64,000 bases of DNA from an uncultured Acidimicrobiia bacterium (GCA_963810905.1 CAWEPG010000002.1:242178-306177); one strand, 5' to 3'. Shown: positions 9,769-28,615, numbered from the stretch's first letter. A program made the numbers and translations. The notes: generated by a model not told the origin, from the letters alone.

Positions 9769-9823
9769 GCCTAACCCATCCATCGATCGGACCTTCACCG
9801 GCCGCCCATGTCAAAGGTTAGGC
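9769..9823 (+). other. attC-like site with perfectly complementary inverse core GCCTAAC (9769-9775) and core GTTAGGC (9817-9823)
   Basis: The R'' consensus RYYYAAC and R' consensus GTTRRRY are both matched exactly, 55 bp apart. The site sits between the stop at 9753 and the next ATG at 9836. Confidence 0.6.
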
Positions 9824-9835
9824 TAGGGAGTTTAT

Positions 9836-10255: not shown

Positions 10256-10395
10256 AACAACTTATCGTGCAGTTCTTGAGGGTAAAAAGGAAGATCTAAG
10301 CCTTGAAAACACCTTCTTTTGGAATAGACCTCTTCCTTTCTCAATGTCTTAGCTTGTACTGACCCCGGGCCAACAAACATATTGGAGCAATTGGG

Positions 10396-12697
10396 ATGAT
10401 CGGTAGAAAACTTGCCCATTACGAGGTGCTCGCGAGGATTGGAGCCGGAGGCATGGGTGAGGTGTATCGAGCCCGGGACTTGAGGCTCCAACGGGAGGTT
10501 GCCATCAAGATTCTGCCGTCTGAGCTTCCTTCGAGTTGGGAGGAACGAGAACGTCTTAAGCGCGAGGCAAGGACCCTCGCTACGCTGAATCATCCCAATA
10601 TCGTCACGGTCTACTCGGTGGAGGAGGCGGACGGGACCCACTTTGTCACCATGGAGCTACTGGATGGAGAGACTCTTGACAAGATCGTGGCCGGCGGCGG
10701 CTTGTCCCAGGAACGCTTCACCAGTCTCGCTTTGCAACTGCTCGATGCAATGCGTGCGGCCCACGGGCAAGGTGTCGTGCATCGGGATCTGAAGCCCGGC
10801 AATATTATGATTACCGCTGAACAACGGCTTAAGGTCCTCGACTTTGGCCTGGCAAAGGTCTTTCTCGGTAAAGCCACGGAGAAACCATCCTCTGAACAAA
10901 ATGATCTCTCCACGCGACTTTTTACTCATGCAGGGACTATTCTGGGCACCATCTCCTATCTCTCCCCCGAGCAAGCGCAGGGGAAACCGGTCGACCATCG
11001 TTCTGACATTTTCAGCCTGGGCATCATTCTTCATGAGATGAGTGTGGGCCGGCATCCCTTTCCCGGCGAGAGTGCAGCGGAGGTCATTTCCTCGATCCTG
11101 AGGGATACTCCTTCTCCGATCGGGGATCGCGAATCACCCTGGCTCCTGCGAATGCGCCCCATCATCGAGCGTTGCTTGGAGAAGGACCCGGCGCGACGCT
11201 ATCAAGAGGTCTCGGACATCGTCGCTGATTTGATCACGCTCCGAGAAGTACCGACAGCTTATATTGAGACCAGGGCGGTTGAGGATCTCGTCCAGGCGGG
11301 CCGCGAGGCCCTGGGCCGGCATTCCTGGTCAAGAGCCTTTGAATACCTGGAGCGAGCAGATGCGGCGGGAGAGCTCTCTCCCGACATCCTCGGGCAGTTT
11401 GCCGAGGCCGCCTGGTGGACTGGAAAGATAGATCACTGCTGCCACCTGCTCGAACGGGCCTATGCAGGCCATTTGCGGGAGGGGCATCCAGAACGTGCGG
11501 CCCTCATGTCGGTGAAGCTAGCAGACCTCTTCTATCACAAGGCCGCTCGCTCCGTGAGTAGTGGCTGGCTGAAAAAGGCGGAGAGGCTCCTAAAAAACGC
11601 TGAACATGCCGCGGAGTACGGATACCTCTTGCGCTTCAAAACGCTCCTCTCCTTTGAGGTCGACGGGGATTCCGAGGCCGCATTACGGCTTTCGAAAGAA
11701 TGCTTCGATATTGCCAATCGGGCTGGGGACGAAAACCTACTCACTCTGAGCCTTCAGGACCAAGGGCGAGTTCTGGTTGCCCAGGGTCACGTTTCAGAGG
11801 GCATGGCGCTCCTCGACGAAGCCATGGCCACAGCCTTGAGCGGAGAACTTGACCCCTTCACTGTGGCCAGGACGTACTGCAATATGATCGCCGCTTGTGA
11901 AAAAACGGCCGACTATCGGCGGGCTGCAGAGTGGAGCGACGAGGCACGGGATTGGTGTGAACCCCACGTCAGTTCGCCATTCCCAGGGATCTGTTCGGTG
12001 CATCGTGCGGGGCTGATGCGTCTCCGAGGAACTTTGAAAGAAGCCGAGCACGAAGTGGGTCAGGTCTGTGCAGACTCCCGTGGCTATGTCGATATCGCGG
12101 CGGCAGCTTTCTATGAGATGGGTGAAATCAGATTGCGCCTGGGGAACTACGAAGGTGCTGAGGACGCCTTTCGCGAGGCCCATGAACGAGGCCGAGACCC
12201 GGTTCCTGGCCTTCCGCTCCTTGCTTCTGGCCCAAGGGAAGGTAGACGCTGCCAAGGGCTTGATGACGCGGGCACTAGCCGGATCGCTCCTGCCCCTGGA
12301 TCGTGCACGGCTGCTTCCGACGCAGGTTCAGATTGCTCTGGCCGCCGTGGACGTCGAAGGAGCAAGGGCAGCTGTAGAGGAACTCGAATCAATCGCCTCT
12401 CGATTCGGCTCGGCTGCTTTCGAAGCTGCGGCTGCACACGCCCGCGGGAGCCTAGATATTGCCAACCGCGACTTCGAGAAGGGGTGCACGAGTCTTCGGC
12501 GGGCGCTCGAGTTCTGGTTGGAGGTCAACCTTCCGTATGAGGCTGCCATGACGCGAGTGCTTCTCGCCAAGGGCTATCGTGAAATGGGGGACGGAGCCAG
12601 CGCGGAGCTCGAGCTTCGCACGGCTCGATCGGCTTTCGAGAAGCTCGGTGCGCAGGAAATCTCGGGGGAGTCTGACACCCTGCTGAGTGCTGGGTGA
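10396..12697 (+). CDS. Ser/Thr protein kinase with C-terminal TPR-like helical repeat region; frameshift ~12185-12195
   Basis: The sequence has GAGGMGEVY (a glycine loop), HRDLKPGNIM and DFGLAK. The C-terminal alpha-helical repeats continue in the +1 frame at 12068-12697. Confidence 0.75.
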
Positions 12698-12869
12698 AGA
12701 AGGGCCTACTCACCCCGCCGTTCGGGCGTGAGACGTCCAATGCCGTCACGATAATTCGGGGGCTGACAAAGAAAAGAGTAGTCGCAGTCAGAGAAATCAA
12801 GTTCAGGTAACCGAAAAAGAGGAAATTGACGCTACCGTAGCCTCCAGTCCCCTACTCATTTCATATCCC

Positions 12870-12885
12870 CGTGAATTTTTTGTAT
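12870..12885 (+). promoter_or_regulatory. -10-like element (TTTTTTGTATAATAT) in the 400-bp gap upstream of the GlsB-family gene
   Basis: TATAAT lies in an AT-rich stretch. No convincing -35 was seen. Confidence 0.2.
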
Positions 12886-13104
12886 AATATCGAGAAAGTC
12901 ATCTAGTTGGGAATTACAAGAACTCGCCGTGATTGAGACACCCCAGGAGATTGTGTCGTCTAGCTATGTTCATCACGCGTTTCCCGTCGTAGGGCATTTC
13001 CTGGATTTGAGCTTCTCTCTTCTGGAGATTGTCAATTTCCAGATGTTTGATCCCTATTCCAAAGATAGGGCTGTACCATCCCATATTCGCGAGAGGAGGA
13101 TGTT

Positions 13105-13350
13105 ATGCAATTCGTTTGGTTTATCTTGATTGGTTTAATCGCAGGCTGGCTGGCGGGCCAGATCATGAAGGGCGGAGGCTTTGGAGTCATTGGCGACATT
13201 GTCGTCGGAGTGGTGGGGGCATTGTTGGGAGGTTACCTGTTTGGTTCGCTTGGGATTTCCGCCGGTGGAGGATTGCTCGGTTCCATCATCGTGGCGACCA
13301 TTGGCGCAATTGTGCTCATATTCATCCTGCGCCTGGTTAAACGAGCCTAA
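13105..13350 (+). CDS. GlsB/YeaQ/YmgE family small membrane protein (transglycosylase-associated protein)
   Basis: 81 aa with glycine-zipper TM helices (GWLAGQIMKGGGFGVIGDIVVGVVGALLGG). RBS GAGGAGG. The stop overlaps GCCTAAC at 13345-13351. Confidence 0.75.
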   Translation: MQFVWFILIGLIAGWLAGQIMKGGGFGVIGDIVVGVVGALLGGYLFGSLGISAGGGLLGSIIVATIGAIVLIFILRLVKRA

Positions 13351-13590
13351 CGGTGCAATTTATGGTTTAGCCGGATGTCCCTTCGATAGCGGTATTGGGA
13401 CATTCGCCGAGCAGCCTCATGGAAGCTGGCCCTTGATCCGGAAACAATAACTGGAGGGGGGGCTCTGCGACGCCGAAGCCGAATTTGGAATTCGAGCTAA
13501 AGAGAAATAACTCGCACATACATGGCTTGATTTTGCCTGGCCGGCGCAGCATTTTTATTCACTGCCAGATGGGTCAAAAAGGGTTCGATC

Positions 13591-14028
13591 TTGGGTTCGG
13601 GGGGAAAGAGATCCTTCCAGGAATGCATGTGGTGGAAACGTACAAACTGGACAGCCCAGTCGGCGTCGAAGCGCTCCGTATGGATTGAATACCGGTGAAT
13701 CCAGAGGACCTGACGGCCCTCCTCCAGAATTTAGGCTGTTTGCTTTTGCCGGGCGAAGGCAAAGCTTTTGTTCGAGAAGCGGCACTTCGTTTACGCGGTT
13801 TGTGTGATAATAGGCAAGTGGCAAAAGTGCCTGAAAACCAAATTATTATCACATTATCAACGCAATAGTGCCTGGTAATCAATGGTTCCTCGGATGCGCA
13901 TAGCCCCATCCATCGGCTCTTCGGCGCTGCGCGCCTCAGAACCAACGGATCGAGCTACGTACTCGCCTGATAACCGGTGCGTCAGTGCACCGGTTATTTT
14001 GACTGCGCCGCGCTCATCCGGGGCGTTA
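13591..14028. repeat. Three-copy repeat, copy 2 (full length; hairpin 13960-13987)
   Basis: Aligns with 5246-5612 and 16333-16619. It ends ...GGGGCGTTA, 30 nt before the ATG at 14059. Confidence 0.8.
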
Positions 14029-14058
14029 TGCGGCAAAAGAAAACTAGCGCCTTGATAG

Positions 14059-14622
14059 ATGGTTGAGATAATTGAATTCGAAACCGAACGTCTTCGCTTG
14101 CGTCAGTGGCTTCCTGCTGATCGAGAACCGTTCGCCGCTCTGAATGCCGATCCAAAAGTTATGGAATTCTTTCCTGCTACTCTCGATTACGCCGCAAGCA
14201 ACACCCTAGCTGATCGCTGTGAGGCATTTATTGCTGAGCGGGGTTGGGGTCCATGGGCTGCTGAGATAACGAGAAGCAACCAATTCATTGGATTTGTTGG
14301 CCTTCATGTTCCTGCCCCTGAGCTTCCATTTTCGCCTTGTGTCGAAATTGCCTGGCGGCTAGCCTTCCATCATTGGGGTAAAGGCTTCGCGTCGGAGGCC
14401 GCGAGAGGCGCCCTACGTGTTGGCTTTGAATTGCTTAGCTTGCCGGAAATCGTGTCGTTTACCACGGTTCACAATCTCCGGTCGCGTGCCGTCATGGAAC
14501 GGCTCGGTATGCACGAAACCAAAGATGTCTTTGAGCACCCTCATGTGCCGGCAGGCAACCCTCTTCGTCTACACTGCCTGTATCGGTTGTCGCGCGAACA
14601 GTGGCTGGCACATCCCGTATAA
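14059..14622 (+). CDS. GNAT family N-acetyltransferase (RimJ/RimL-like)
   Basis: 187 aa. The pattern LRLRQWLPADREPFAALNADPKVMEF ... HHWGKGFASEAARG is typical of RimL-type GNATs. Confidence 0.7.
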   Translation: MVEIIEFETERLRLRQWLPADREPFAALNADPKVMEFFPATLDYAASNTLADRCEAFIAERGWGPWAAEITRSNQFIGFVGLHVPAPELPFSPCVEIAWRLAFHHWGKGFASEAARGALRVGFELLSLPEIVSFTTVHNLRSRAVMERLGMHETKDVFEHPHVPAGNPLRLHCLYRLSREQWLAHPV

Positions 14623-14628
14623 TACGTC

Positions 14629-14673
14629 GCTCAACCTGACTCGCGGTGCTGGCGCGCCGCTCGCGGGTTAGCT
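14629..14673 (+). other. Short attC-like palindrome (GCTCAAC ... GGCGCGCC core ... GTTAGCT)
   Basis: A perfect RYYYAAC (GCTCAAC) lies 7 nt after the stop. The right end is GTTAGCT. At 45 bp it is shorter than typical attC sites. Confidence 0.3.
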
Positions 14674-14680
14674 CTGCGTT

Positions 14681-15982
14681 ATGCCGACCGACGATTCTCA
14701 GTCCTCCGAGAGCCGAGACATGAATCAACGCCAAACATTGCCTCACGGTGTAGTTCTGGTGCTCGGGCTGGCGGTGCTGCTCAACTATGTTGATCGCGGC
14801 AACCTCGCGACGGCAGCGCCGATCTTGCAGGACGAGCTCTCACTCTCGGGCGCCCAGGTCGGCTTATTGTTGTCGTCGTTCTTCTGGGTGTATGCACCTG
14901 CGCAGTTGCTGGCAGGGTGGCTGGTGCACCGTTACGAGATCCGCATTGTTCTGGCCGCGGGCATCGCGCTGTGGTCTGTGGCGACCGCCATGACTGGGCT
15001 TGCCGGGGGATTCGCTTCAATCCTGCTTTGGCGCCTGATGCTCGGTCTCGGAGAGAGCGTCACATTTCCGAGCTGGCAGTTGCTACTCGCGCGACACACA
15101 GTCGAGCATGAGCGTGGGCGGGCGAATGGCTTCGTAGGCGCCGGCCAGGGGATCGGGCCGATGCTCGGCACTCTCTTTGGCGGCCTGGCGATGGCCCACT
15201 ACGGTTGGCGTGCCACGTTCATCGGGCTGGGGATCATCACGCTCCTGTGGCTCTGGCCTTGGTTTACCGTTACACGAGTGGGCTTTCATGCGCCGGCTGG
15301 GAAGGATCCGCTGCCGGTCTCATACCTTGCGATCCTTCGGCGGCGGGAGTTCTGGGGCGCCGCACTCGGACATTTCAGCATCAACTACACGTTCTACTTC
15401 GTTATCACGTGGCTGCCGACTTTCCTCGTCAAGGCGGGCGGTTTCACGGTCTCGCAGATGGCGGGGATTGGCGCGGCTATCTATGGCATCTATGCTGTCA
15501 CGACGGCGCTCGCTGGTGCGGCCTCTGATCGTTGGATCCGGCGTGGCGGATCCGCTACGCGAGTGCGCAAGACGTTCGTGCTCACGAGTGCCCTTGGCTC
15601 GGCAGTCACGATCGCGTGCTGCGCGTACGTAGAGCCGCGCGCTGCGGTCTGGTTGCTCGGCGTTGCAGGAGTGTTCTTCGGCCTTTCAACGCCGATGATC
15701 TTCGCCATCGGCGCGACGCTCGCAGGTCCGCGTGCCGCAGGCCGCTGGGCCGGCGCGCAGAACCTGGCGGGCCAACTGGCAGGAATAATCGCGCCAGTCG
15801 TGACGGGCTTAATCGTCGATCGTACTGGCGCCTTCTCCTGGGCATTCGCCGTCGCCGCGGCGTCGGCCGTGTTCGCGATGGTGGCGTGGGGCGTCGTCAT
15901 TCGGCGGGTGGCAGCGGTGCAGTGGCCGGAGGAGCTGGCGCCAGTCCCCTTAGAGCCCCTTGGTGGCGCGAGCCCGCGCTGA
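14681..15982 (+). CDS. MFS transporter (high GC)
   Basis: 433 aa with about 12 predicted TM segments. MFS-like loop motifs are present, for example LGESVTFPSWQLLLARH. Confidence 0.7.
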   Translation: MPTDDSQSSESRDMNQRQTLPHGVVLVLGLAVLLNYVDRGNLATAAPILQDELSLSGAQVGLLLSSFFWVYAPAQLLAGWLVHRYEIRIVLAAGIALWSVATAMTGLAGGFASILLWRLMLGLGESVTFPSWQLLLARHTVEHERGRANGFVGAGQGIGPMLGTLFGGLAMAHYGWRATFIGLGIITLLWLWPWFTVTRVGFHAPAGKDPLPVSYLAILRRREFWGAALGHFSINYTFYFVITWLPTFLVKAGGFTVSQMAGIGAAIYGIYAVTTALAGAASDRWIRRGGSATRVRKTFVLTSALGSAVTIACCAYVEPRAAVWLLGVAGVFFGLSTPMIFAIGATLAGPRAAGRWAGAQNLAGQLAGIIAPVVTGLIVDRTGAFSWAFAVAAASAVFAMVAWGVVIRRVAAVQWPEELAPVPLEPLGGASPR

Positions 15983-16092
15983 GACGTGTCCCTCGACACC
16001 GAAGTGAAGATGGCTGACCTCGATCTCTGGCAAAACGACAGCCCGACATAACAGGCCGTTGGGCGGCCATAACATATAGAAACGAGGGGGCA

Positions 16093-16410
16093 ATGAAGAA
16101 TCTGCGACGCGAGAGGGCTTTAGCCCATCAGGCGCTTGTCCCATCCACGGGGTCTTGGTGTTGGCTTGAATCCGTCATCCTGGCCTTCGGATTCCCAGCC
16201 GTGATTTGGGCGATTTCGAAGCTCATTACGCTGTTCGTCCCAGCCGCCCTCCACAGTTCTAGGGAACAGCGCTTTCTGCAATACATCAGTGGGGGATTGA
16301 TCGCCGAGTGGCTGTTTGTCGCCAGCCTTTGTTTGGGTTCGGTGGGAAAGAGATCCTCCCGGGAATGCCTGTGGTGGAAACGGACAACCTGGACAATCCA
16401 ATCAATGTAG
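16093..16410 (+). CDS. Hypothetical membrane protein. Its C-terminus runs into repeat copy 3, so the call is doubtful
   Basis: 105-aa ORF. The 5' end overlaps a copy of the MITE terminal motif (GAATCTGCGACGCGAGAGGGC). Confidence 0.25.
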   Translation: MKNLRRERALAHQALVPSTGSWCWLESVILAFGFPAVIWAISKLITLFVPAALHSSREQRFLQYISGGLIAEWLFVASLCLGSVGKRSSRECLWWKRTTWTIQSM

Positions 16411-16619
16411 GAGCGCTCCGTATGGATTGAATAGTGGTGAACCCGGAGGACCCGACGGACCTCATCCAGAATTTAGGCTGTTTGCTTTTGCCGGGCGACT
16501 TTTGTTCAAGAAGTGGCACTTAGTTTACGCGGTTTGTGTGAAAATATGCAAGTGGCAAGAGTTCCCGAAAACCAGGTTATTATCAACTTACCAGGGTAAA
16601 ATTGCCTGATAATCAATGG
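16333..16619. repeat. Three-copy repeat, copy 3 (5' module only; the 3' structured module is missing)
   Basis: Homology to copies 1 and 2 stops at ...TGATAATCAATGG, 32 nt before the ATG at 16651. Confidence 0.75.
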
Positions 16620-16650
16620 CGTCTGGCGCCATACCTCAAACAGTGATCGC

Positions 16651-17187
16651 ATGAATACTTACATTGCGCTTTTCAGAGGAATTAACGTTGGCGGCAAAAA
16701 CTCTTTGCCGATGAAGGAGCTTGCGGCTTTTCTGGAAAACCTTGGTGCGAAAAATGTCAGAACTTATATCCAAAGCGGAAACGCAGTATTCCAGAGCGTA
16801 GAAAAGAACTCTTCACAACTCTCCAAACAATTGTCCGCTGAAATCAAAAAGCGTCACGGCTTTGAGCCCCACGTTCTCCTGCTTGGGCTCCAAGCAATAA
16901 ATACGGCAATAGCAAAAAACCCATTCCCCGAAGCAGAGGCTGATCCAAGCAGTTTGCATCTGGGCTTTCTAGCTTCCAAGCCCAAGAACCCCGACCTAGA
17001 GAAACTCAACAGCCTTAAGAAGTCGAGTGAGAGGTTTCATCTGAGCGATACCGTGTTCTATCTACATGCGCCCGAAGGCGTGGGTAGATCCAAGCTCGCA
17101 GCAAGCACCGAAAAATTACTCGGCGTTCCGATGACAGATCGCAACTGGAGAACAGTTTGCAAAATCAGAGAGCTGGCGGGAGAGTAA
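16651..17187 (+). CDS. DUF1697 family protein
   Basis: The N-terminal motif MNTYIALFRGINVGGKNSLPMKELAAFLENLG matches DUF1697. Confidence 0.7.
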   Translation: MNTYIALFRGINVGGKNSLPMKELAAFLENLGAKNVRTYIQSGNAVFQSVEKNSSQLSKQLSAEIKKRHGFEPHVLLLGLQAINTAIAKNPFPEAEADPSSLHLGFLASKPKNPDLEKLNSLKKSSERFHLSDTVFYLHAPEGVGRSKLAASTEKLLGVPMTDRNWRTVCKIRELAGE

Positions 17188-17195
17188 ATGACCAC

Positions 17196-17264
17196 GCCCA
17201 ACCCCTCATTCCACCGGACCTTGCGCATAAAGCCGCGCAAGTCCGGTGAATTCAAACGTAGGGC
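17196..17264 (+). other. attC-like site: GCCCAAC - 9 nt - CACCGGAC(C)TTGCGC - loop ATAAAGCC - GCGCAAGTCCGGTG - 9 nt - GTAGGGC
   Basis: The left core is a perfect RYYYAAC. The 14-bp arms are inverted repeats with one extrahelical C. The spacers are symmetric. The right core is one mismatch from GTTGGGC. Confidence 0.55.
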
Positions 17265-17353
17265 AGCCAGCGAGAATACAAGTCTGCGGCAGACTTTTCA
17301 ATTCTTGTCATGGCAGCCGTAAACGGCAACATTTCCGAGGCCACGGAAATCAG

Positions 17354-18037
17354 ATGAGTAACAATAAAGTGTATGTGGATCCCAAGGTTCAAAAGGTACT
17401 CAACCTATACGCGGACATATTCGCTGGCGATTTCTATTCGTTGCCGGTTAGAAGACAGCTCGAGCTTCAGGCAGTCAGGCTGACGGAGGCCCATCACAAT
17501 CGAGATGATTCAGTCTGTTTTCAGATCGGCTCCTGGCACCCTGAGTTGGTAGGAAAAAACGATGACTCGATCTTGAACCATGTCTTCTGTATCGACGATG
17601 GAAGAACCACCATAGCTAGAGAATACGGATTCAAGGACTGGAATGACGCGGATACTATCGGCGACAGACGGTCGAATGTGAAGTTCGAGATGGCCGTCAA
17701 CACAATGCTTTCTGGAAATCTGTCCTTATTGAGGGGACTAATAGGAGAAACACCTGACTTGACCAGCGCGAGATCACAGTACGGCCACAGCGCGACTCTC
17801 CTGCATTATGCCGGCATCAACGGAGTGGAATCATACAGGCAAGTTGTTCCATTGAATTTGACCGAAATCGTAGAATTCCTAATTGCATCGGGAGCCGATC
17901 TGACTAGCAGGGCTAACATCTACGGAGGAAGTACTCCCCGCGAACTATTCGAAACGAGCAAGCATTCGTACGAATCAAATGTGCATGAGGATGTCATTAC
18001 TATCTTCAAGAAATATGAAGCTAGGCTTGGTTGCTGA
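17354..18037 (+). CDS. Hypothetical protein with C-terminal ankyrin repeats
   Basis: The ATG at 17354 was chosen; the ORF track starts at 17246. HSATLLHYAGINGVE ... EIVEFLIASGADLTSRANIYGGSTP look like ankyrin repeats. Confidence 0.45.
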   Translation: MSNNKVYVDPKVQKVLNLYADIFAGDFYSLPVRRQLELQAVRLTEAHHNRDDSVCFQIGSWHPELVGKNDDSILNHVFCIDDGRTTIAREYGFKDWNDADTIGDRRSNVKFEMAVNTMLSGNLSLLRGLIGETPDLTSARSQYGHSATLLHYAGINGVESYRQVVPLNLTEIVEFLIASGADLTSRANIYGGSTPRELFETSKHSYESNVHEDVITIFKKYEARLGC

Positions 18038-18266
18038 TTTCTTGGCATATGAACAGGCTTCCCAACCAAACGATGGAGCCGACGCAAAAGGCGCAAGGCT
18101 CATTGTTAAGCCGTTCTGCCGACGTTGACGCGTGGGGATGAAGACAGGGAGCATCCTGTCGTCTTGCGTCGGGCGAACTGGTGAGTAGGCGCGTTAGTGT
18201 CCCAGTGACTTATCCGCGGGGCTCAATGCAAATCGTTCAGATCTGAGAGGCACGAGGCGAGATGTC

Positions 18267-18623
18267 ATGCGTGAGCAGGTGATACAGGTTGTCGAGCAGT
18301 ACATTGACGCGGTACGGCACAATGACGCCTCCGCTCTTCCACTTCATTCAGATGCAGTCTGCGAGTTCCCTACGAACACATATCGGGGCGCTGCGTCGTT
18401 TCGGAAGGGGCTCGAGGATTTCGCCCGCGTCATGAAGAGCATCGAAGTCGTCCGTCTCGTAGTCGATGGCGAGCACTGCGTCGCCATCCTGAACATCGAC
18501 ACCGTATTCGGGCGCATTCCGTTTGCCGAGTACATTCACGTGGCGCACGGACAGATCGTCTTCATTCGAGGCTACTGCGATCCACGCCCGATGCTGGGCG
18601 GAGCGACACTACCGCCTGGATGA
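18267..18623 (+). CDS. SnoaL-like / NTF2-like (ketosteroid-isomerase fold) small protein
   Basis: 118 aa. The pattern VVEQYIDAVRHNDASAL ... HCVAILNIDT ... HVAHGQIV fits the fold. Confidence 0.4.
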   Translation: MREQVIQVVEQYIDAVRHNDASALPLHSDAVCEFPTNTYRGAASFRKGLEDFARVMKSIEVVRLVVDGEHCVAILNIDTVFGRIPFAEYIHVAHGQIVFIRGYCDPRPMLGGATLPPG

Positions 18624-18694
18624 CTGGGATCTCCACGCGGACACCTCGATATAGCACCACTCTTCGCAGGTAGCTCCAACTGGAGGAAAAACCA

Positions 18695-19483
18695 ATGGTG
18701 ACCGACCAAATCCGCTTCGACGACGGGGCTGCCTACGAACGATACATGGGGAAGTGGAGCCAGCTTGCAGGTGAAACGTTCCTCGACTGGCTTGCTCCAG
18801 AATCAGGTTTGCGATGGCTCGACGTTGGCTGCGGCAACGGCGCCTTTACCGAAATGCTCGTCGAGCGGTGTGCACCAGTCTCGGTACAGGGGATAGACCC
18901 GTCTGAGGCGCAGCTCGCCTTTGCGCGCACACGACCCGCGTCGCGTATCGCACAGTTTCGTCAGGGCGATGCAATGGCGCTGCCTTTCCCCGACGACACG
19001 TTCGACGTGGCTGTCATGCCGCTGGTGATTTTCTTCGTTCCCGACCCGGCCAAGGGCGTTGCCGAAATGGCGCGAGTGGTCTGCCCGGGTGGCACCGTCA
19101 CAGCCTACGCGTGGGACATGTTTGGCGGTGGATTTCCCTACGAGGCGTTGCAGGTTGAAATGCGTGGGCTGGGCGTTGCAGTTCCGGTACCGCCGAGCCC
19201 TGGCGCGTCTCGAATAGACGCAATGCGGGACTTGTGGACGGGTGCGGGTTTGGATGCCGTCGAAACGCGGGAGATCACCGTGCAACGGACATTCGCCGAT
19301 TTCGACGACTACTGGACGACCATCCTCGGGGGGCCGAGCGTCGGTCCAAAGCTCGCAGCGATGGCGTCCGAGGATCTCGCGCTTCTCAAAGCGCGGATGC
19401 GCGCGCGCCTGCCGGCAGATGCCACTGGCCGTATCACCTATAGTGCCCGGGCTAACGCAGTAAAGGGTCGCGTGCCAAACTGA
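18695..19483 (+). CDS. Class I SAM-dependent methyltransferase
   Basis: LDVGCGNGAFTE is SAM-binding motif I. DAMALPFPDDTFDVAV and VCPGG are also present. Confidence 0.75.
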   Translation: MVTDQIRFDDGAAYERYMGKWSQLAGETFLDWLAPESGLRWLDVGCGNGAFTEMLVERCAPVSVQGIDPSEAQLAFARTRPASRIAQFRQGDAMALPFPDDTFDVAVMPLVIFFVPDPAKGVAEMARVVCPGGTVTAYAWDMFGGGFPYEALQVEMRGLGVAVPVPPSPGASRIDAMRDLWTGAGLDAVETREITVQRTFADFDDYWTTILGGPSVGPKLAAMASEDLALLKARMRARLPADATGRITYSARANAVKGRVPN

Positions 19484-19571
19484 TTTTCAGGATGAATCTG
19501 CTGAGTGGCTTTGGAGCTCGTTGCAGAATGATCTCGGCCGGCCAGCCAACACCTCCTAAAAGAGAATTGCG

Positions 19572-20786
19572 ATGCGGGTACTGTTATCAACCATTGGATC
19601 ACGGGGCGATGTCCAGCCGCTGGTGGCGCTGGCGCTGCAGTTGAGGACCCTCGGCCAGGAGGTCCGCATGTGCGTACCGCCCGACTTCCGGGATTGGATC
19701 GAGGGCCTTGGCCTCTCCCGTAACGACCATTGGACCCGAGCTGCGCTCGACTGGGAAAGCCAGCCCAGACAGCAGCCCCATCCACGCCGGAGCAACGACG
19801 CCAGATGATGGAAGACATGGTCACCACGCAATTCGCGACGGTCACGGCGGCAGCCCAGGACTGCGACATCATTGTGGCGGCAACCGGCCTTCAGATCGCC
19901 ACGCGCTCCGTGGCAGAGAAGAGGGGCATCCCTTACATTTTTGCCGCCTTCTGTCCGGCAGTTCTGCCCTCGCCGCATCACGCGCCCCCGGTCTATGGCA
20001 TGAGGGGACAGACGCCGGCGCCCGCAACCGCTGACAACCGAGAGCTCTGGGCTCGGGATGCGGCCGTCTACCATGACGGGTTCGGTACCGTGCTCAATTC
20101 CCTTCGCGCATCCGTCGGCCTGGCCCCGGTCAGCGATGTGCGCAGCCACATCTTCGCCGACCGTCCTTGGCTGGCAGCCGACCCGATCCTGGGACCATGG
20201 CCCGATCCCGCGGATCAGACCGTGTTTCAGACCGGCGCTTGGATCCTGCAGGATGAACGTCCCCTGTCCCCCGAGTTGGAGACCTTCCTTGAGGCCGGCG
20301 AACCACCTGTCTACTTCGGCTTCGGCAGCATCCGCGCACCGCAAGGTCTTAGCCAAGTGATGGTTCAAGCGGCCCGCGCCCTCGGGCGCCGTGCCATCAT
20401 CTCCCGCGGTTGGGCTGACCTGTCACTGGCGGATAATGAACCCGATTGCTTGGCCATTGGTGAGGTCAACCAGCAGGCGCTTTTCAAACGGGTTGCCGCC
20501 GTCGTCCACCACGGCGGCGCGGGGACCACAACCGCCGCCGCGCTGGCCGGTGCCCCCCAAGTCGTTGTCCCCCAGATGTTCGACCAGCACTACTGGGCTC
20601 AACGAATCCAGTATCTCGGCATTGGAACCGCGCACGCACCCGGCGACACCGACCACCGACTCGCTCACGATCACTCTCAAGCACACCCTCCAGCCCGACG
20701 TGACCGCTCGTGCTCAATCCATCGCCGCCGGAATGCGCCGCGATGGCGCCCAGGCCGCCGCCCAGCGCTTGATAACCGCCGCCTGA
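19572..20786 (+). pseudogene. Family 1 glycosyltransferase (UDP-glycosyltransferase/MGT-like), with at least 3 frame disruptions (~19715-19735, ~20640-20660)
   Basis: The N-terminus MRVLLSTIGSRGDVQPLVALALQL and the core HHGGAGTTTAAALAGAPQVVVPQMFDQHYWA are recognisable. The C-terminus (...AQSIAAGMRRDGAQAAAQRLI) is split over three frames. Confidence 0.65.
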
Positions 20787-21019
20787 CAAGGCGTGCACGG
20801 GACAGGTGGGATGGAGCTGGTTGCGCCGCGCTTAGGCTCGCAGGCGGCGCACGGAACCCCGGCAAGATCGCGGCCGGTTCCGCGGGCCAGCCCTACCGGA
20901 TCGGCGCGTGGTCGCGCGTGTAGCGATGTGGTTGTCCACCAAGTCGATGAAGTTGACGGTCCCCTTCGGCGACCGCAGCTTATTGGCGATCCGTTGGGCG
21001 GTACGATGCACCAGTCCTA

Positions 21020-21592
21020 TTGGAGAATAAGTGGGTGCTTAACAATCGTTCTGATGAACTAGATAGTCAAACTCACTTCACTCGCGCAATAAAATATCTT
21101 CGCGCCGGTAATGAACCTGAAGCTTTGGCGGCGTTCAGCCGCCTTCTCCAGCTGACACCCGGTCATGAACAGGCAAATGCCGCGCGCCAAAAATTGGCTA
21201 CCGAGCTCGGGCTGGCTGAACTTGACCAGGCCGCCCGAGTAATAGAGAACTTCGTTTATGCCCAATGTGGCCCAGGTTATGGTTGGAAAGTTGAACTCCG
21301 AGAGATGTATCAGTTTAGACCAAACCAACCGCCCCTGACCATGAATGCTGTTGTGCTGGATTTATGCCAGGCTCCGCAAGCCTTTATCCAACTAATAATT
21401 ATGGCCGACGACTATGAGGTAAGCCTTATGGTTGAGAAACCAATACCGGGAGTGGCACGCACAACTCTTTCGCAAGCACGGACCGAAACGGTTCAGGCAC
21501 AGCCAGAGAAATTGTTAGAGTTGCTCAACCGAATGGTAGCGACTGGCATGTTGATCAACACGGGCAATCAATTACAATATCATGGCGCATAA
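21020..21592 (+). CDS. Hypothetical protein; the only in-frame start is TTG
   Basis: 190-aa ORF. No family was recognised. Confidence 0.3.
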   Translation: MENKWVLNNRSDELDSQTHFTRAIKYLRAGNEPEALAAFSRLLQLTPGHEQANAARQKLATELGLAELDQAARVIENFVYAQCGPGYGWKVELREMYQFRPNQPPLTMNAVVLDLCQAPQAFIQLIIMADDYEVSLMVEKPIPGVARTTLSQARTETVQAQPEKLLELLNRMVATGMLINTGNQLQYHGA

Positions 21593-21733
21593 AGTAGCTA
21601 GACAGGCCGACCAACCCCGTCATGCAGCCGACCTGCTCCGCTGCGCTTCGCGGGCGGATGATGGCGACCGTTTGGCGGCTCATGCGACACTCGAAAGAAT
21701 TCGAAGGGTAAACAAAGGATCGGACAGGCCGAA

Positions 21734-22120
21734 GTGACGAGTCCATCTCTCAGCATCGCAGCCGTGATCGTTATCGGGGTATCCCTTTTGATCGTCGGCG
21801 GTACCGCCCTCGCGGTGCCGGGGTTTGCCGCCGACATGTATGGCGTCGCTGCGTCAGATGCGACGGCACGCGCGTATGTGTGGGCTACGGGTATACGTGA
21901 TATTGCGATCGGCTTTTGGCTGCTGGTCCTCGTGGCAATCCGAGCAGGCGCGCGGGTCTTAGGCATTTCGATACTGGTTGGGAGCCTCATCCCGATTGGT
22001 GACGCAATCAACGTTTGGATAAACGCAGGGACTCGAAGCCCCTTGGCGCTTGCGCTCCATATTTCTTCGGTGTTCTTGTTTATTGCACTTGGTTTGTGGA
22101 TATGGCGCAATCCTGTCTGA
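21734..22120 (+). CDS. Small membrane protein, possibly DUF4267-like
   Basis: 128 aa with four hydrophobic helices. The family assignment is from memory only. Confidence 0.35.
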   Translation: MTSPSLSIAAVIVIGVSLLIVGGTALAVPGFAADMYGVAASDATARAYVWATGIRDIAIGFWLLVLVAIRAGARVLGISILVGSLIPIGDAINVWINAGTRSPLALALHISSVFLFIALGLWIWRNPV

Positions 22121-22317
22121 AAAGGGCGAGCTGTTGGTCCAGCTTCGCGCAATCGGAGCGGGCGTAACCATTGCTATCGAAGTTGAAACCGGCTGGCGCA
22201 CCAAGGAGGTCATACTCGAAGATCCTTGAATCATGGCCGGAGAGTTCAACGCCAGCGTCAAGGGTTTAAGGCCTCTATTAGAGGGCAGGAAAGTCAATCG
22301 GAAACCGAGGTGGTAAT

Positions 22318-22999
22318 GAAGGTCACGGAGATCTGGCGATATCCGGTCAAGACGATGGCCGGCGAGAAGTTGCAACGGGCATGCCTGGGGCCGCTCGGCA
22401 TTGAGGGCGACCGAGTGGTGCATGTCGAGGACATCCAGGGTCGGGTGATCACCTCGCGCTCCCATCCGCGCTTCCTGGGTCATAAGGGGACGTTGGGTGC
22501 AGATGGTACGCCCCTTGTAGACGGCCGGCCATGGAACAGTTCGGAAGTCGCCGCCGCAACTGTAGACATTGCCGGGCCGGGCGCGAAGCTGGTGCGTTAT
22601 GATGGTGCCGAACGCTTTGACGTGCTGCCGTTGCTGGTGGCTACCGACGGAGCCATCGCCGCCTTCGGTCACGACCATCGCCGCTTACGACCCAACATCG
22701 TGATTGGCGGCGTCGAGGGGTTGGCCGAGCGCGAGTGGCCGGGAGGGTGCCTGCGTATAGGCAAAGTGCTTATCGGTGTCCAGGATTTGCGTCTGCGCTG
22801 CATTATGACTTCATACGATCCCGACACGCTGGTCCAGGAAAAGGAAATCACTCGCGGCATCTACCAGCGCTTCGAAGGCAAACTTGCCCTCAACTGCTTC
22901 GTGATCGAAGGCGGCGAAATTGCCGTGGGCGATGAGGTGCAACTGCTGCGCGGTCGTGCTTGCGCAGAGTCTAGCGCGGCAGCAGTATTCGCCGACTAG
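22318..22999 (+). CDS. MOSC domain-containing protein (YcbX-like)
   Basis: RBS GAGGTGG precedes the ATG at 22318. The start MKVTEIWRYPVKTMAGEKL is typical of MOSC N-terminal beta-barrel proteins. Confidence 0.55.
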
Positions 23000-23543
23000 G
23001 CCAGCCATGGCCGCCGGCGCCGAGCCTCCGACGATTCGCTCCCGCCAACGGGCAAAGGAGCACGTCTGATTTGACTTCGACGACGTCAAGCGTCAACTAA
23101 CCTAACCGGCTCCCAGCACGCTGCTGAACAGCCGTCAGGAGCGAGTGAGGTTGCCAGTTGTTTATAACAAGCTTTGGCCGAATCACCTGGGGTTGAGATT
23201 GGATGGCTCCGGTAGACCTGCTCTCATATGCCCACTTGCTCTGGAGGCATGCCGCTGTACCAGCCTCGCGTCATTTGTGTCTTCGGGCATGCATCGAGTC
23301 AAGGTCCCATCGCAGAACACTTTGGACCGGATCAAGGATCTTTAGGCTTTATTCTTGATTCAGCATAGGTATGTTCTTTAAATTGTCCCAATTAAGGTAT
23401 TCTGTTTTGAAATCCCCGCCGGGCAGGACTGCCTGACAACGACGTTTATATCTCGTTACCAGGACTGGCCTCCCTGTCAACTAAGGGATGGCCAGCTGCT
23501 GGCTGAATACAAAATCTAGGAGGCAACGTTCAGGGGGGGACCA

Positions 23544-23846
23544 ATGAAAAAGACCATCGCCGTTTTCATGCGTCCGGGCTCGCAGTGGAACCCGGACAAG
23601 CCGGTTCGAAAGCAAGCCTTTTGGGACGACCACGCGCGATTCATGGATTTGCTGTTCGAGGCCGGCGAGGTGATCCTGGCGGGCCCGTTTGCGGATGGCA
23701 GTGGGTCGATGGTGATCCTTGCGGCCGAGAATGTGGAGGCGGCGCGCGCGGTATTTCAGGAAGACCCCTGGACCCTCCATGACATCTTGTTAGCCGGTGA
23801 GGCCAAGGAATGGACCCTCTTCCTTGACGGACGCAACAAGGGATAG
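23544..23846 (+). CDS. YciI-like protein
   Basis: 100 aa. The residues ILAGPFADGSGSMVILAAENVEAARAVFQEDPW match the YciI family. RBS GGAGG. Confidence 0.7.
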   Translation: MKKTIAVFMRPGSQWNPDKPVRKQAFWDDHARFMDLLFEAGEVILAGPFADGSGSMVILAAENVEAARAVFQEDPWTLHDILLAGEAKEWTLFLDGRNKG

Positions 23847-23966
23847 AGGTGGATCCACTTCTGCTTGAAGCGAGGATCGAAGCATACTGCCGGCAGGTAA
23901 GGCGACTGGTGGCCGAGCGTATGAACCGCCAATGAGTCCGTAATCAGCAGGAGAGGAGAGGATTGA

Positions 23967-24440: not shown

Positions 24441-24464
24441 CACACCAGTCACCACCTGGGGATC

Positions 24465-24860: not shown

Positions 24861-24982
24861 GCTTGAGGTCGAAACCCGGGTTGAACCAAGGTCCGACATC
24901 ATCGCATGACGAGATCGAACAATCGCGGTAAATTTTATCGAAAAACGGCGGACCGGATCCGGAAACGACTCGGCATAAATTT

Positions 24983-25396: not shown

Positions 25397-25439
25397 AATA
25401 TTTTCAAACACAGGACTGTTTCGTGCTGAGCGAGGGATA

Positions 25440-25961: not shown

Positions 25962-26006
25962 GATTGTACCAAGGCGGACCTGTAAATCCTGGTTGGGAAC
26001 CGATGC

Positions 26007-26222: not shown

Positions 26223-26235
26223 CGATATGAAATTC

Positions 26236-27652: not shown

Positions 27653-28570
27653 GTGGTCGTCCGGTCCAAGAAGAGAGAGTCCATGATTGATGCAGTACGA
27701 AAAGTTCGATGGCAGGCATTCTGGATTACCATGGCAATTCCTTTTTTTGTGGGCTTCGTAACGTGTTTCGCCCGCGCAGAGGCACCGACGGAAAGCGCAG
27801 GTGATCAACCACCGGAGAAGCTACTCCCGCTACCCGGTGAAGTATTCAGAGTAAAAGGACACACAGCTTTTCTCCTGCTACCCGTACAGAGACATCCGAC
27901 CCGTACAACGCCATGGATATGGTATGCGCCAACGTTACCGGGCCTGCCCGGTGATGAAGAGAAGTGGATGTTTGAGAAGTTTTTGGCTGCTGGCATCGCC
28001 ATTGCTGGCATCGACGTGGGCGAATCTTACGGTAGCCCCCAAGGGCGGGACATCTACTCCGCGTTCTATGGAGAACTCGTCCAAGAGCGCGGCCTATCCA
28101 AGAAGGCGTGTCTCTTGGCGCGAAGTCGTGGGGGCTTGATGCTTTATAACTGGGCAGCCGAACACCCTTCCTCTGTTGCCTGTATCGCTGGTATTTATCC
28201 GGTCTGTAACCTCATCAGTCTTCCAGGGCTAAAGAAGGCAAGCGTCGCCTATGGGATGAACGAAGGTCAACTCGCCACCGAACTTGCTGAGCACAATCCC
28301 ATTGAGCGTTTGGAACCACTATCTAAGGCGCATATCGCCATTTTTCATATCCATGGAGACAGCGACAAAGTGGTGCCGCTGGAGCAGAATTCGGGTGAGT
28401 TGGCAAAGCGCTACCGGATGCTTGGAGGAGAAATGACGCTCAAGATTGTTGAGGGCCAGGGGCACAACATGTGGTCCGGTTGGTTTCAATGTCAGGAACT
28501 TGTCGATTTTGTCGTTGCACACGCAAGAAATAATGGCCCAAACCAGGCAGATCCAGACGACGGTAAATAG
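27653..28570 (+). CDS. Secreted alpha/beta-hydrolase (S9-type esterase/peptidase)
   Basis: A signal peptide is present. The C-terminal catalytic His/Asp region is HIHGDSDKVVPLEQ. The start is GTG 27653 or ATG 27683. Confidence 0.6.
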   Translation: MVVRSKKRESMIDAVRKVRWQAFWITMAIPFFVGFVTCFARAEAPTESAGDQPPEKLLPLPGEVFRVKGHTAFLLLPVQRHPTRTTPWIWYAPTLPGLPGDEEKWMFEKFLAAGIAIAGIDVGESYGSPQGRDIYSAFYGELVQERGLSKKACLLARSRGGLMLYNWAAEHPSSVACIAGIYPVCNLISLPGLKKASVAYGMNEGQLATELAEHNPIERLEPLSKAHIAIFHIHGDSDKVVPLEQNSGELAKRYRMLGGEMTLKIVEGQGHNMWSGWFQCQELVDFVVAHARNNGPNQADPDDGK

Positions 28571-28615
28571 CCGCGCCTGATCCGGATCGTTTAATTACAA
28601 TGAAGGAGTTGAATC

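What the first reader, a model, noticed from the sequence alone, without database searches (positions are those of the whole stretch)
17196..17264. Near-ideal attC hairpin: GCCCAAC / 14-bp inverted arms with one extrahelical base / GTAGGGC
GCCCAAC (17196-17202) is a perfect RYYYAAC. A 9-nt spacer follows. The arms CACCGGAC(C)TTGCGC and GCGCAAGTCCGGTG are inverted repeats with one unpaired C, the kind of extrahelical base attC sites use for strand selection. A second 9-nt spacer follows, then GTAGGGC, one mismatch from GTTGGGC, the complement of the left core. The site sits 9 nt after the DUF1697 stop and ~90 nt before the next gene.
Basis: seen in the sequence. Interest (0 to 1): 0.7.

Follow-up and report, generated by a model that had tools for sequence, protein, structure and literature searches.

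The report
Integron cassette recombination site (attC)

Summary
The sequence is exactly as described. It folds (z = -5.8) into attC geometry: an R''/R' outer stem, 5- and 6-nt unpaired spacers, and an inner stem with two bulged C on the 5' arm.

A covariance model built only from 21 attC sites of other cassettes in other genomes ranks it first in the window. It scores 54.5 bits (E = 7e-11) on the + strand and 9.6 bits on the - strand.

The same DUF1697 gene with the same hairpin is the second cassette of a bona fide integron (L001; IntI matches TIGR02249 at 425 bits). It also lies in cassette arrays of many phyla. Homology between contexts starts at G|TTGGGCG and ends at ...TCAAACG|TT, the integron crossover point.

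A 98.2%-identical strain (L086) has GTTGGGC, so the window's GTAGGGC is a single T->A change at 17260. Published IntI1 data show that a GTA attC site recombines with wild-type attI1 at near wild-type rates.

At least seven more + strand attC sites (7.4-28.6 kb) follow + strand ORFs. No tyrosine recombinase lies in the 64 kb, so this is a CALIN-type array. The two strains differ by a cassette swap bounded by attC crossovers.

Verdict: a real attC, a new member of a known kind, of low interest.

The parts
17196..17264 (+). attC recombination site of the DUF1697 cassette, 69 nt. The top strand is the + strand, so the - strand is the recombining bottom strand.
   Evidence: Fold. Independent CM R2: 54.5 bits, E = 7e-11 on +, against 9.6 bits on -. 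Homologous copy in the integron L001 and in 13 other genomes. Covariation.
17196..17202 (+). R'' core, GCCCAAC (RYYYAAC).
   Evidence: Identical (GCCCAAC) in most DUF1697-cassette attCs, with minor variants (GCCCAAT in L047/L052, GCCCACAAC in L049).
17203..17207 (+). 5' unpaired central spacer, CCCTC. Position 17205 is C here, but A in strain L086 and in most of the family.
17208..17226 (+). L'' and 5' arm of the stem, ATTC(C)ACCGGAC(C)TTGCGC, with two extrahelical C at about 17212 and 17220.
   Evidence: Minimum-free-energy structure. Compensatory changes at 7 pairs.
17227..17234 (+). Terminal loop, ATAAAGCC (a minimal variable terminal structure).
   Evidence: The motif ATAAAGCC recurs in many attCs of the family.
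17235..17251 (+). 3' arm of the stem and L', GCGCAAGTCCGGTGAAT.
17252..17257 (+). 3' unpaired central spacer, TCAAAC.
17258..17264 (+). R' core, GTAGGGC. The crossover point lies between G17258 and T17259. A17260 is a T->A substitution of the ancestral GTTGGGC.
   Evidence: L086 (98.2% identical strain) reads GTTGGGC. In at least 11 genomic contexts homology ends after the G. 91 of 110 metagenomic family members have G+TT and 2 have GTA.
16651..17187 (+). DUF1697 coding sequence (178 aa), the cargo of the cassette.
   Evidence: Pfam PF08002, E = 1.6e-43. Homologues at 59-92% identity across many phyla.
16615..17258 (+). DUF1697 gene cassette, the block shared with other arrays. The canonical 5' end TTGGGCG is decayed to AATGGCG here, and homology to other copies starts at 16618.
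   Evidence: Eight or more independent arrays read ...G|TTGGGCG...ATG. The window and L086 read ...C|AATGGCGTCTGG.
9769..9823 (+). Sibling attC after the ADH gene: GCCTAAC...GTTAGGC, with a short, poorly folding centre.
   Evidence: R2: 38.1 bits, E = 6e-7. Fold z is only -1.5 to -2.1.
7458..7532 (+). Sibling attC overlapping the 3' end of ORF 6119-7480.
   Evidence: R2: 28.7 bits, E = 1e-4.
8160..8223 (+). Sibling attC at the stop of ORF 7273-8163.
   Evidence: R2: 26.5 bits, E = 4e-4.
21609..21676 (+). Sibling attC after ORF 21020-21592: GACCAAC...GTTTGGC.
   Evidence: R2: 22.6 bits, E = 3e-3. R1: 26.8 bits.
14617..14684 (+). Sibling attC at the stop of the GNAT gene.
   Evidence: R2: 21.0 bits, E = 8e-3.
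28537..28595 (+). Sibling attC at the 3' end of the hydrolase gene 27653-28570.
   Evidence: R2: 20.5 bits, E = 0.01.
20934..20999 (+). Sibling attC after the glycosyltransferase gene 19730-20923, ending GTTGGGC.
   Evidence: R2: 19.3 bits, E = 0.02.
6039..6093 (+). Weak attC at the stop of the DUF4279 gene. It is the left breakpoint of the cassette swap between strains.
   Evidence: R2: 13.8 bits, E = 0.4. Homology with L086 ends at ...GAGGCG|TTA.
18060..18126 (+). Weak attC of the next (227-aa) cassette: TCCCAAC...GTTCTGC.
   Evidence: R2: 12.3 bits, E about 1. The homologous site in L087-89 diverges at [G/T]|TT.

Best explanation
The element is the attC site (59-base element) of a promoterless DUF1697 gene cassette.

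Established integron mechanism, not shown here: during replication or conjugation the bottom (-) strand folds into the hairpin. Integron integrase monomers bind the R box (R''/R') and the L box (L''/L'). The two extrahelical bases and the asymmetric 5/6-nt unpaired spacer make the integrase choose the bottom strand. Cleavage occurs opposite G|TT, here between 17258 and 17259. attC x attC recombination excises a cassette as a circle, and attC x attI recombination inserts it.

Shown here: the architecture, the strand polarity, descent from a site that serves in real integrons, and exchange of neighbouring DNA exactly at the crossover point.

Inferred: the site is still a usable substrate. It carries a T->A change at the third base of GTT, which leaves an A.A mismatch (T.T on the bottom strand) in the R stem. 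Published IntI1 data suggest a GTA site is tolerated, though the constructs tested carried a compensating change in R''. Any recombination would need an integrase encoded elsewhere, because the window holds a cassette array without an integrase (CALIN type).
For: 1. Structure. The fold gives an outer 4+2-bp R stem, 5- and 6-nt unpaired spacers, an inner 17-bp stem with two bulged C on the 5' arm, and an 8-nt loop. z = -5.8, with 0 of 200 shuffles as stable.

2. Independent covariance model. R2 was built from 21 attC sites of other cassettes in other genomes. It gives 54.5 bits, E = 7e-11, the top hit of the window. The reverse orientation scores 9.6 bits.

3. Same cassette in a real integron. 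L001 carries IntI (TIGR02249, 425 bits against a cutoff of 265) on the - strand, then a response-regulator cassette, then DUF1697 (90% aa identity) followed by the same hairpin. P0004 (89% identity) lies directly beside a divergent tyrosine recombinase.

4. Cassette boundaries. In at least 8 arrays the block begins G|TTGGGCG, which is the exact partner of R'' GCCCAAC. In at least 11 arrays it ends ...TCAAACG|TT followed by unrelated DNA.

5. Covariation. 75.5% of cells are paired, against 41.5% or less when partners are slid. Seven pairs carry compensatory changes. The score is 0.257 against 0.130 shuffled, with 0 of 500 shuffles as high.

6. Family spread. The left half of the site occurs on at least 120 metagenome contigs, with 100 distinct downstream contexts. 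G+TT is present in 91 of 110 parsed sites. At least 8 of the contigs also encode a near-full-length IntI homologue.

7. Array context. Seven further + strand attC hits with E <= 0.02 each sit at the 3' end of a + strand ORF.

8. Recent exchange. Two strains that are 98.2% identical differ by a cassette swap whose breakpoints lie at attC G|TT sites.

9. Tolerance of GTA. attC-aadA7 carrying GTA recombined with wild-type attI1 at near wild-type rate, at most 2-fold lower (PMC2811028).
Against: - No integrase or any tyrosine recombinase is detectable in the 64 kb. tblastn with the L001 IntI at E <= 1e-3 found nothing. Pfam scans of ORFs from 0.5 to 41.7 kb found none.
- The core triplet is GTA, not GTT, and R'' carries no compensating change. 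The constructs tested in the literature were compensated.
- The cassette's own 5' junction is decayed (C|AATGGC). No attC is recognisable in the 240 nt upstream, so DUF1697 could not be excised alone.
- The covariance models were my own, not IntegronFinder's, and their E-values are rough. Some R2 training sites come from arrays that share sequence motifs with this family.
- No experiment shows recombination at this site.
Confidence: 0.93

Rival explanations
1. It is an attC by descent but now an inert relic. With no cognate integrase in the genome, a mutated GTT and a decayed upstream junction, it is no longer recombined and survives only as a hairpin between two genes.
For: - No intI in the 64 kb.
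- GTA at the cleavage triplet with an uncompensated mismatch.
- The R2 score falls from 66.2 bits in L086 to 54.5 bits here.
- The upstream junction reads C|AATGGC instead of G|TTGGGC.
- Several neighbouring attCs are weak or poorly folding.
- Gene order is identical between the window and L086 over 19.3 kb.
Against: - The stem, bulges and spacers are intact. The only differences from L086 within the 69-nt site are the spacer base at 17205 and the R' base at 17260.
- GTA alone is tolerated by IntI1.
- The same array shows a strain-level cassette swap exactly at attC crossovers, which implies recent integrase activity in this lineage.
- CALIN cassettes can be mobilised in trans (discussion in PMC4889954).
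Confidence: 0.3
2. It is a rho-independent transcription terminator or attenuator for the DUF1697 gene, and its resemblance to attC is coincidental.
For: It is a stable G+C-rich hairpin starting 9 nt after a stop codon. Any such hairpin may incidentally impede transcription or translation.
Against: - There is no T-run after the stem; the tail reads AATTCAAACG.
- The terminator scan does not call it.
- The flanking R''/R' cores and the spacers are conserved across phyla, which a terminator does not require.
- Homology breaks at G|TT.
- The CM score is strongly strand-specific in the attC sense.
Confidence: 0.02
3. It is a REP- or MITE-like repeated extragenic palindrome, mobilised for example by a RAYT-type transposase that recognises GTAG, and is unrelated to integrons.
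For: It is an extragenic imperfect palindrome. The right end reads GTAG. The sequence family is very abundant in metagenomes.
Against: - GTAG is a private substitution. The sister strain and 91 of 110 family members have GTT.
- Copies always lie at 3' ends of co-oriented ORFs, in arrays next to IntI.
- Only one copy of this sequence occurs in the 64 kb.
- No Y1 or RAYT transposase was found in the window.
Confidence: 0.01

Closest known systems
attC sites (59-base elements) of integron gene cassettes, e.g. attC-aadA7 of class 1 integrons
   Same: - RYYYAAC and GTTRRRY cores.
- 5- and 6-nt unpaired central spacers.
- L''/L' stem with extrahelical bases on the L'' side.
- Short terminal loop and a 69-nt length.
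- Position at the 3' end of a promoterless ORF in the same orientation.
- Crossover at G|TT.

The aadA7 anatomy is recalled from memory. The features themselves were tested on 21+12 natural sites.
   Different: - R' reads GTA, a T->A change at the third base, and is uncompensated.
- The site is chromosomal, in an uncultured Terriglobia bacterium.
- No attI or intI lies nearby.
- The cargo is a DUF1697 protein of unknown function, not a resistance gene.
[quoted passage not shown] 2016, PMC4889954)
   Same: Two or more co-oriented attC sites less than 4 kb apart with no integrase nearby. Cassettes are mostly of unknown function. No intI pseudogene is recognisable.
   Different: Defined here with my own covariance models, not IntegronFinder. 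The array is long (about 7.4 to 28.6 kb) and has heterogeneous, partly decayed attCs. Gaps between some confident sites exceed 4 kb.
Sedentary chromosomal integron arrays, e.g. Vibrio VCR arrays and the acidobacterial chromosomal attCs modelled by Ghaly et al. 2021 (PMC8352920)
   Same: A long chromosomal array of small, unrelated, co-oriented genes. Strain-to-strain variation in cassette content at a fixed chromosomal locus.
   Different: No intI or attI at the head of the array within the window. The attC sites are not homogeneous. This site belongs to a sequence family found mostly in proteobacterial MAGs and metagenomes.
Rho-independent terminators and REP elements
   Same: A stable extragenic hairpin just downstream of a gene.
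   Different: No U-tract. Conserved flanking cores, asymmetric spacers and bulges. Boundaries of mobility at G|TT. Association with IntI.

Membership tests
integron attC site | Inverse core R'' = RYYYAAC at the 5' end | tested here: met
   GCCCAAC at 17196-17202.
integron attC site | Core R' = GTTRRRY at the 3' end, complementary to R'' | tested here: inconclusive
   GTAGGGC: 6 of 7 bases match, with the third base of GTT changed. The 98.2%-identical strain L086 has the canonical GTTGGGC. A GTA attC is functional with IntI1 (PMC2811028).
integron attC site | Folded single strand with an R stem, an unpaired central spacer, an L stem with extrahelical bases on the L'' side, and a variable terminal loop | tested here: met
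   The minimum-free-energy fold shows exactly this, with 5- and 6-nt spacers and two bulged C on the 5' arm. z = -5.8.
integron attC site | Significant, strand-specific score against an attC covariance model | tested here: met
   R2, trained on 21 unrelated attCs with neither the window nor the DUF1697 sites in the training set, gives 54.5 bits, E = 7e-11 on + and 9.6 bits on -. IntegronFinder's own model was not available.
integron attC site | Located at the 3' end of a cassette ORF in the same orientation, with length in the 55-141 nt range | tested here: met
   The site is 69 nt and starts 9 nt after the DUF1697 stop on the + strand.
integron attC site | Cassette mobility: the same ORF+attC unit in different contexts, with homology ending at G|TT | tested here: met
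   At least 11 different right junctions follow ...TCAAACG|TT. At least 8 left junctions read G|TTGGGCG.
integron attC site | Structure maintained by compensatory substitutions | tested here: met
   Seven pairs have changes on both sides. Covariation is 0.257, against 0.126 or less when partners are slid, and 0 of 500 shuffles reach it.
integron attC site | Recombined by an integron integrase (IntI), bottom strand preferred | not testable with these tools
   Association only. Homologous sites lie in arrays next to a TIGR02249 IntI (L001) and next to IntI homologues on at least 8 metagenome contigs.
CALIN (cluster of attC sites lacking integrase) | At least 2 attC sites on the same strand less than 4 kb apart | tested here: met
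   14617, 17196, 20934 and 21609 (all +, E <= 0.02) are spaced 2.6, 3.7 and 0.7 kb apart. There is a further group at 7458, 8160 and 9769.
CALIN (cluster of attC sites lacking integrase) | No integron integrase within 4 kb (or 10 kb) of the cluster | tested here: met
   tblastn with the L001 IntI finds nothing in the 64 kb at E <= 1e-3. No Phage_integrase Pfam hit among the ORFs scanned.
complete / sedentary chromosomal integron | intI gene plus attI adjacent to the first cassette | tested here: not met
   None in the window. The rest of the genome is not available.
rho-independent terminator | G+C-rich hairpin immediately followed by a T-run | tested here: not met
   The tail is AATTCAAACG, and the scan does not list the site.

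The most novel reading that the evidence does not exclude
The integrase-less array is still being remodelled in this Terriglobia lineage by an integrase acting in trans. It draws on a cassette pool shared across phyla. The DUF1697 cassette, with an attC of a type abundant in proteobacterial integrons, occurs at 72-92% protein identity from Betaproteobacteria to Acidobacteriota, and even in Methanothrix archaea. The GTA variant would then be a natural example of a cleavage-site change that alters partner specificity, as Frumerie et al. predicted.
Probability: 0.3. Interest if true: 0.45.

Novelty: new member of a known kind. Interest (0 to 1): 0.25.

Why it matters
The finding correctly annotates the DUF1697 gene and its neighbours as mobile gene cassettes rather than core genes. 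It also identifies roughly 7.4-28.6 kb of the window as a cassette array without an integrase.

This explains the swings in GC content and the run of small, unrelated, co-oriented genes. It documents that one cassette, including its recombination site, circulates among very distant phyla. It offers a natural GTT->GTA cleavage-site variant, with its GTT sister allele, for testing integrase tolerance.

None of this changes current understanding of integrons. Chromosomal attC arrays in Acidobacteria and CALIN elements are already described (PMC8352920, PMC4889954).

Tried and rejected
- A plain RYYYAAC...GTTRRRY regex finds only a handful of candidates. When loosened it is noise: 22 hits against 5-16 in Markov shuffles. 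I abandoned it in favour of covariance models.
- Rfam has no matching family.
- An exact-sequence lookup of the window's DUF1697 protein found nothing.
- Model R1 contains the window's own site, so its 90.7 bits is circular. I used it only to harvest sites, and used R2 for the test.
- The L018_12883 hit is a training sequence of R2 and does not count.
- The archaeal DUF1697 loci show no attC with R2.
- The region 28-34 kb next to metH is mosaic among relatives but has almost no recognisable attCs in L210 and L211. I therefore do not claim that the array reaches metH.
- My first regex for 'DUF1697 upstream' in the metagenome contigs was unreliable. tblastn replaced it and showed DUF1697 next to none of those 110 sites. 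The attC type is thus shared by many different cassettes.
- The terminator and REP readings were rejected for the reasons given under the rival explanations.
- No paper in the library links DUF1697 with integrons.

Full report
**Observation**

GCCCAAC lies at 17196-17202. The arms CACCGGAC(C)TTGCGC and GCGCAAGTCCGGTG follow, and GTAGGGC lies at 17258-17264. The site begins 9 nt after the last base of the stop codon of a 178-aa ORF (16651-17187). That ORF matches Pfam DUF1697 at E = 1.6e-43. The site ends 90 nt before the next in-frame ATG at 17354.

It is the longest inverted repeat between 8 and 34.5 kb. As single-stranded DNA it folds at -17.7 kcal/mol (top strand) and -19.6 kcal/mol (bottom strand). 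The z-scores are -5.8 and -6.0, and no shuffle of 200 folds as well.

The fold refines the anatomy. ATTC (17208-17211) pairs with GAAT (17248-17251), so the unpaired spacers are 5 nt (CCCTC) and 6 nt (TCAAAC), not 9 and 9. The 5' arm carries two bulged C, near 17212 and 17220. The outer stem is GCCC/GGGC plus AC/GT around an A.A mismatch. This is the textbook attC layout: R box, unpaired central spacer, L box with extrahelical bases, terminal loop.

**Surroundings**

From about 6 to 29 kb the window is a run of small, functionally unrelated + strand genes. They include DUF4279, an alcohol dehydrogenase (ADH), a Ser/Thr kinase, GNAT, MFS, DUF1697, SnoaL, a methyltransferase, a glycosyltransferase, MOSC, YCII, OsmC, GNAT, AHSA1/ArsR and hydrolases. 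GC content swings between 0.50 and 0.61.

No ORF scanned has a phage-integrase domain. tblastn with a bona fide integron integrase finds nothing in the whole 64 kb. Rfam has no hit. MetH (34488-38183) is 87% identical to a 'Terriglobia bacterium' protein, so the window is most likely from an uncultured acidobacterium.

**Relatives of the cassette**

The DUF1697 protein has homologues at 77-92% identity in the protein collection. It has homologues at 59-87% identity in 80 species-representative genomes. These span Beta-, Gamma- and Deltaproteobacteria, Acidobacteriota, Acidimicrobiia, Ignavibacteria, Nitrospirota, Chloroflexi, cyanobacteria and Methanothrix archaea. This distribution implies horizontal transfer.

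Two close homologues lie in the classical integron layout. P0004 sits directly next to a divergently oriented tyrosine recombinase (no DNA held). In L001 the order is integrase (-), response-regulator gene (+), DUF1697 (+), then further + genes. The L001 integrase matches NCBIfam TIGR02249 'integron integrase' at 425 bits against a cutoff of 265.

Downstream of DUF1697, L001 carries the same hairpin. It reads ...ACGCCCAACCCATCATTCCACCAGACCTTGCGCATAAAGCCGCCAAGGCCGGTGAATTCAAACG|TTATGTG. Its similarity to the window stops exactly after the G.

Thirteen further genomes have recognisable versions after their DUF1697 gene. Their right junctions include GTTATCA, GTTGGCT, GTTGGAC, GTTGAGA, GTTAGCG, GTTGGCA, GTTAGGT, GTTAGGC and GTTAGGG, each followed by unrelated DNA.

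On the 5' side, at least eight independent arrays read ...G|TTGGGCG...(about 30 nt)...ATG, each preceded by a different attC. TTGGGC is the exact partner of R'' GCCCAAC, as expected when a circular cassette is opened at G|TT. A unit that keeps its sequence while its neighbours change at G|TT on both sides is a gene cassette by definition.

**Structure conservation**

An alignment of 12 DUF1697-cassette attCs (A2) was tested against the window's structure. It gives 75.5% paired cells, against 41.5% or less when partners are slid by 1-3 columns. Seven pairs have compensatory changes. The covariation score is 0.257, against 0.130 in shuffles, and none of 500 shuffles reaches it. RNAalifold independently recovers the L stem, with 6 covarying pairs.

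**Covariance-model test**

Model R1, built from A2, contains the window's own site. I used it only to harvest attC sites in the fetched loci. It found 61 hits, nearly all co-oriented with DUF1697 and arranged in arrays, for example 10 in L022 and 9 in L013 downstream of an IntI homologue.

From these I took 21 sites that belong to other cassettes in other genomes. None is adjacent to DUF1697 and none comes from the window. I aligned them (A3) and built model R2 with a hand-set R/L structure.

With filters off, R2 ranks 17196-17264 (+) first in the window at 54.5 bits, E = 7e-11. The same bases on the - strand score 9.6 bits, E = 4.4. The polarity agrees with the gene orientation and with the bulges lying on the L'' side.

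R2 also finds seven more + strand sites with E <= 0.02:
- 9769-9823 (38.1 bits)
- 7458-7532 (28.7 bits)
- 8160-8223 (26.5 bits)
- 21609-21676 (22.6 bits)
- 14617-14684 (21.0 bits)
- 28537-28595 (20.5 bits)
- 20934-20999 (19.3 bits)

Weaker sites lie at 6039-6093 and 18060-18119. Every one sits at, or just after, the stop of a + strand ORF. No - strand hit has E < 0.6.

By the published definition, two or more co-oriented attC sites less than 4 kb apart with no integrase form a CALIN (PMC4889954). This region meets it.

**The GTA core**

The 227-aa gene downstream (17354-18037) led to L086, a 448-kb metagenome contig. L086 is collinear with window 8732-28039 at 98.2% nucleotide identity. At the homologous position L086 reads ...CCCATC...TCAAACGTTGGGCAGCC.

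The window's GTAGGGC is therefore a private T->A substitution at 17260 of a canonical GTTGGGC. A second difference lies in the spacer at 17205. R2 scores the L086 allele at 66.2 bits.

Among 110 metagenomic members of the same attC sequence family, 91 have G+TT and two have GTA. The changed base is the third of the triplet. Formally it lies beyond the crossover, in the first bases of the next cassette.

Frumerie et al. tested exactly this change. attC-aadA7 carrying GTA recombined with wild-type attI1 at close to the wild-type rate, at most 2-fold lower. The rate fell 17-fold only when both partners were GTA (PMC2811028). Their constructs kept the R stem paired, whereas here R'' is unchanged, so an A.A (T.T on the bottom strand) mismatch results. 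Functionality is thus plausible but not shown.

**Is the array alive?**

The window and L086 share their sequence up to ...GAGGCG|TTA in the attC at 6039-6093. They then differ completely: 2.6 kb in the window against 1.3 kb in L086, which carries DUF1801 and a 252-aa gene. Similarity resumes at |TTAGGCCC, 26 nt before the ADH gene.

A replacement of cassettes bounded by two crossover points, between strains 98% identical, points to integrase-mediated exchange in the recent past of this lineage.

The 227-aa cassette also occurs (85% identity) in a different long array of an Acidobacteriia MAG (L087-89). There its attC homologue diverges from the window's at [G/T]|TT.

Against current mobility of DUF1697 itself, its 5' junction in both the window and L086 is C|AATGGCG rather than G|TTGGGCG. 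No attC is detectable in the 240 nt upstream. It could leave only together with upstream DNA.

**The attC sequence family**

The sites have 100 different downstream contexts. DUF1697 is upstream of none of them. Near-full-length IntI homologues (42-52% identity to the L001 IntI) lie on at least 8 of the contigs.

So this is a widespread attC type attached to many cargos. Among the named genomes it is seen mostly in proteobacterial MAGs. The cassette was probably imported into the acidobacterial array.

**Rival readings**

- Terminator: no T-run follows the stem, and the scan does not call the site. Conserved cores, conserved spacers and G|TT breakpoints are unexplained by a terminator.
- REP or MITE: the GTAG is a private mutation. 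There is one copy in 64 kb. Copies elsewhere are tied to ORF 3' ends and to IntI.
- Chance: excluded by the fold statistics, the CM E-value and the homologues.
- Inert relic: this is the only serious open question, and I put it at about 0.3.

**Comparison with what is known, and verdict**

The site meets every defining sequence and structure feature of attC that can be tested in silico. The one exception is the third base of the GTT triplet, which a sister strain retains. Recombination by IntI cannot be tested here. The region meets the CALIN definition and fails the complete-integron definition within the window.

Chromosomal attC arrays in Acidobacteria and CALINs are already described (PMC8352920; PMC4889954). 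No paper in the library mentions DUF1697 cassettes.

The finding is a new member of a known kind, useful for annotation and of low general interest (0.25).

Noticed in passing
window 6091-8731 versus L086 106-1386: Two strains that are 98.2% identical carry different cassettes here. The window has a 453-aa ORF and others; L086 has DUF1801 and a 252-aa gene. The breakpoints lie exactly at attC crossovers: ...GAGGCG|TTA on the left and |TTAGGCCC on the right. This indicates recent integrase-type exchange despite the absence of an integrase in the window.
   Followed up: yes
window 26236-26295: Two copies of the inverted repeat ATGCAAC-N6-GTTGCAT flank a TATAAT box and overlap the ribosome-binding site and start of the AHSA1 (26290-26757) / ArsR-type HTH (26741-27112) gene pair. 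It looks like an autoregulatory operator. It passes crude attC regex filters but is not an attC.
   Followed up: no
window 17281-17300: A small hairpin, AAGTCTG-cgg-CAGACTT followed by TTTC, lies 17 nt after the attC in the leader of the 227-aa gene. It could be a weak terminator or attenuator. The terminator scan did not call it.
   Followed up: partly
window 13970-13997: A perfect 11-bp palindrome, ATAACCGGTGC/GCACCGGTTAT, followed by TTTT. It lies inside a weak attC-model hit at 13933-14031 (12.9 bits, E = 0.7). It may be a terminator or the terminal stem of a long, degenerate attC.
   Followed up: no
L018, L019, L037, L041 (Methanothrix / Methanotrichaceae MAGs): DUF1697 homologues at 72-78% identity occur in archaeal MAGs. 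After the stop codon they keep only an R''-like heptamer (GCACAAC, GTCCAAC, GCTTAAC or GCCCAAT). No full attC follows the gene. This suggests cross-domain transfer of the cassette followed by decay of its site.
   Followed up: partly
L002/L003/L007 (Betaproteobacteria MAG GCA_016194935), just after the DUF1697 stop: An ISL3-family transposase gene sits exactly where the attC should begin (...ATAACTAC|AGGGGG...). An insertion sequence has replaced or interrupted the recombination site.
   Followed up: no
window 534-1385 and 1745-2917 (- strand); window 10396-12540 versus L086 3051-5352: A prolyl-oligopeptidase (S9) gene is split into two ORFs in the window, which may be a frameshift or pseudogene. 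The Ser/Thr kinase is intact in the window but called as two genes in the sister strain L086.
   Followed up: no
window 28-34 kb versus L210 and L211: The region just upstream of metH is mosaic among relatives whose MetH is 94-95% identical. Ecotin, globin, GNAT and hydrolase genes are shuffled or absent. Yet it has almost no recognisable attC sites, so its variability may not be integron-driven, or its sites may be badly decayed.
   Followed up: partly
L094, L101, L114 and about 117 other metagenome contigs (L090-L209): The attC sequence type GCCCAACCCATCATTCCACCGGAC...GGTGAATTCA(A/G)ACGTT is extremely common in environmental metagenomes. It is attached to many different genes, sometimes twice on one short contig. 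It appears to be the house attC family of a widespread integron lineage whose host is not identified here.
   Followed up: partly
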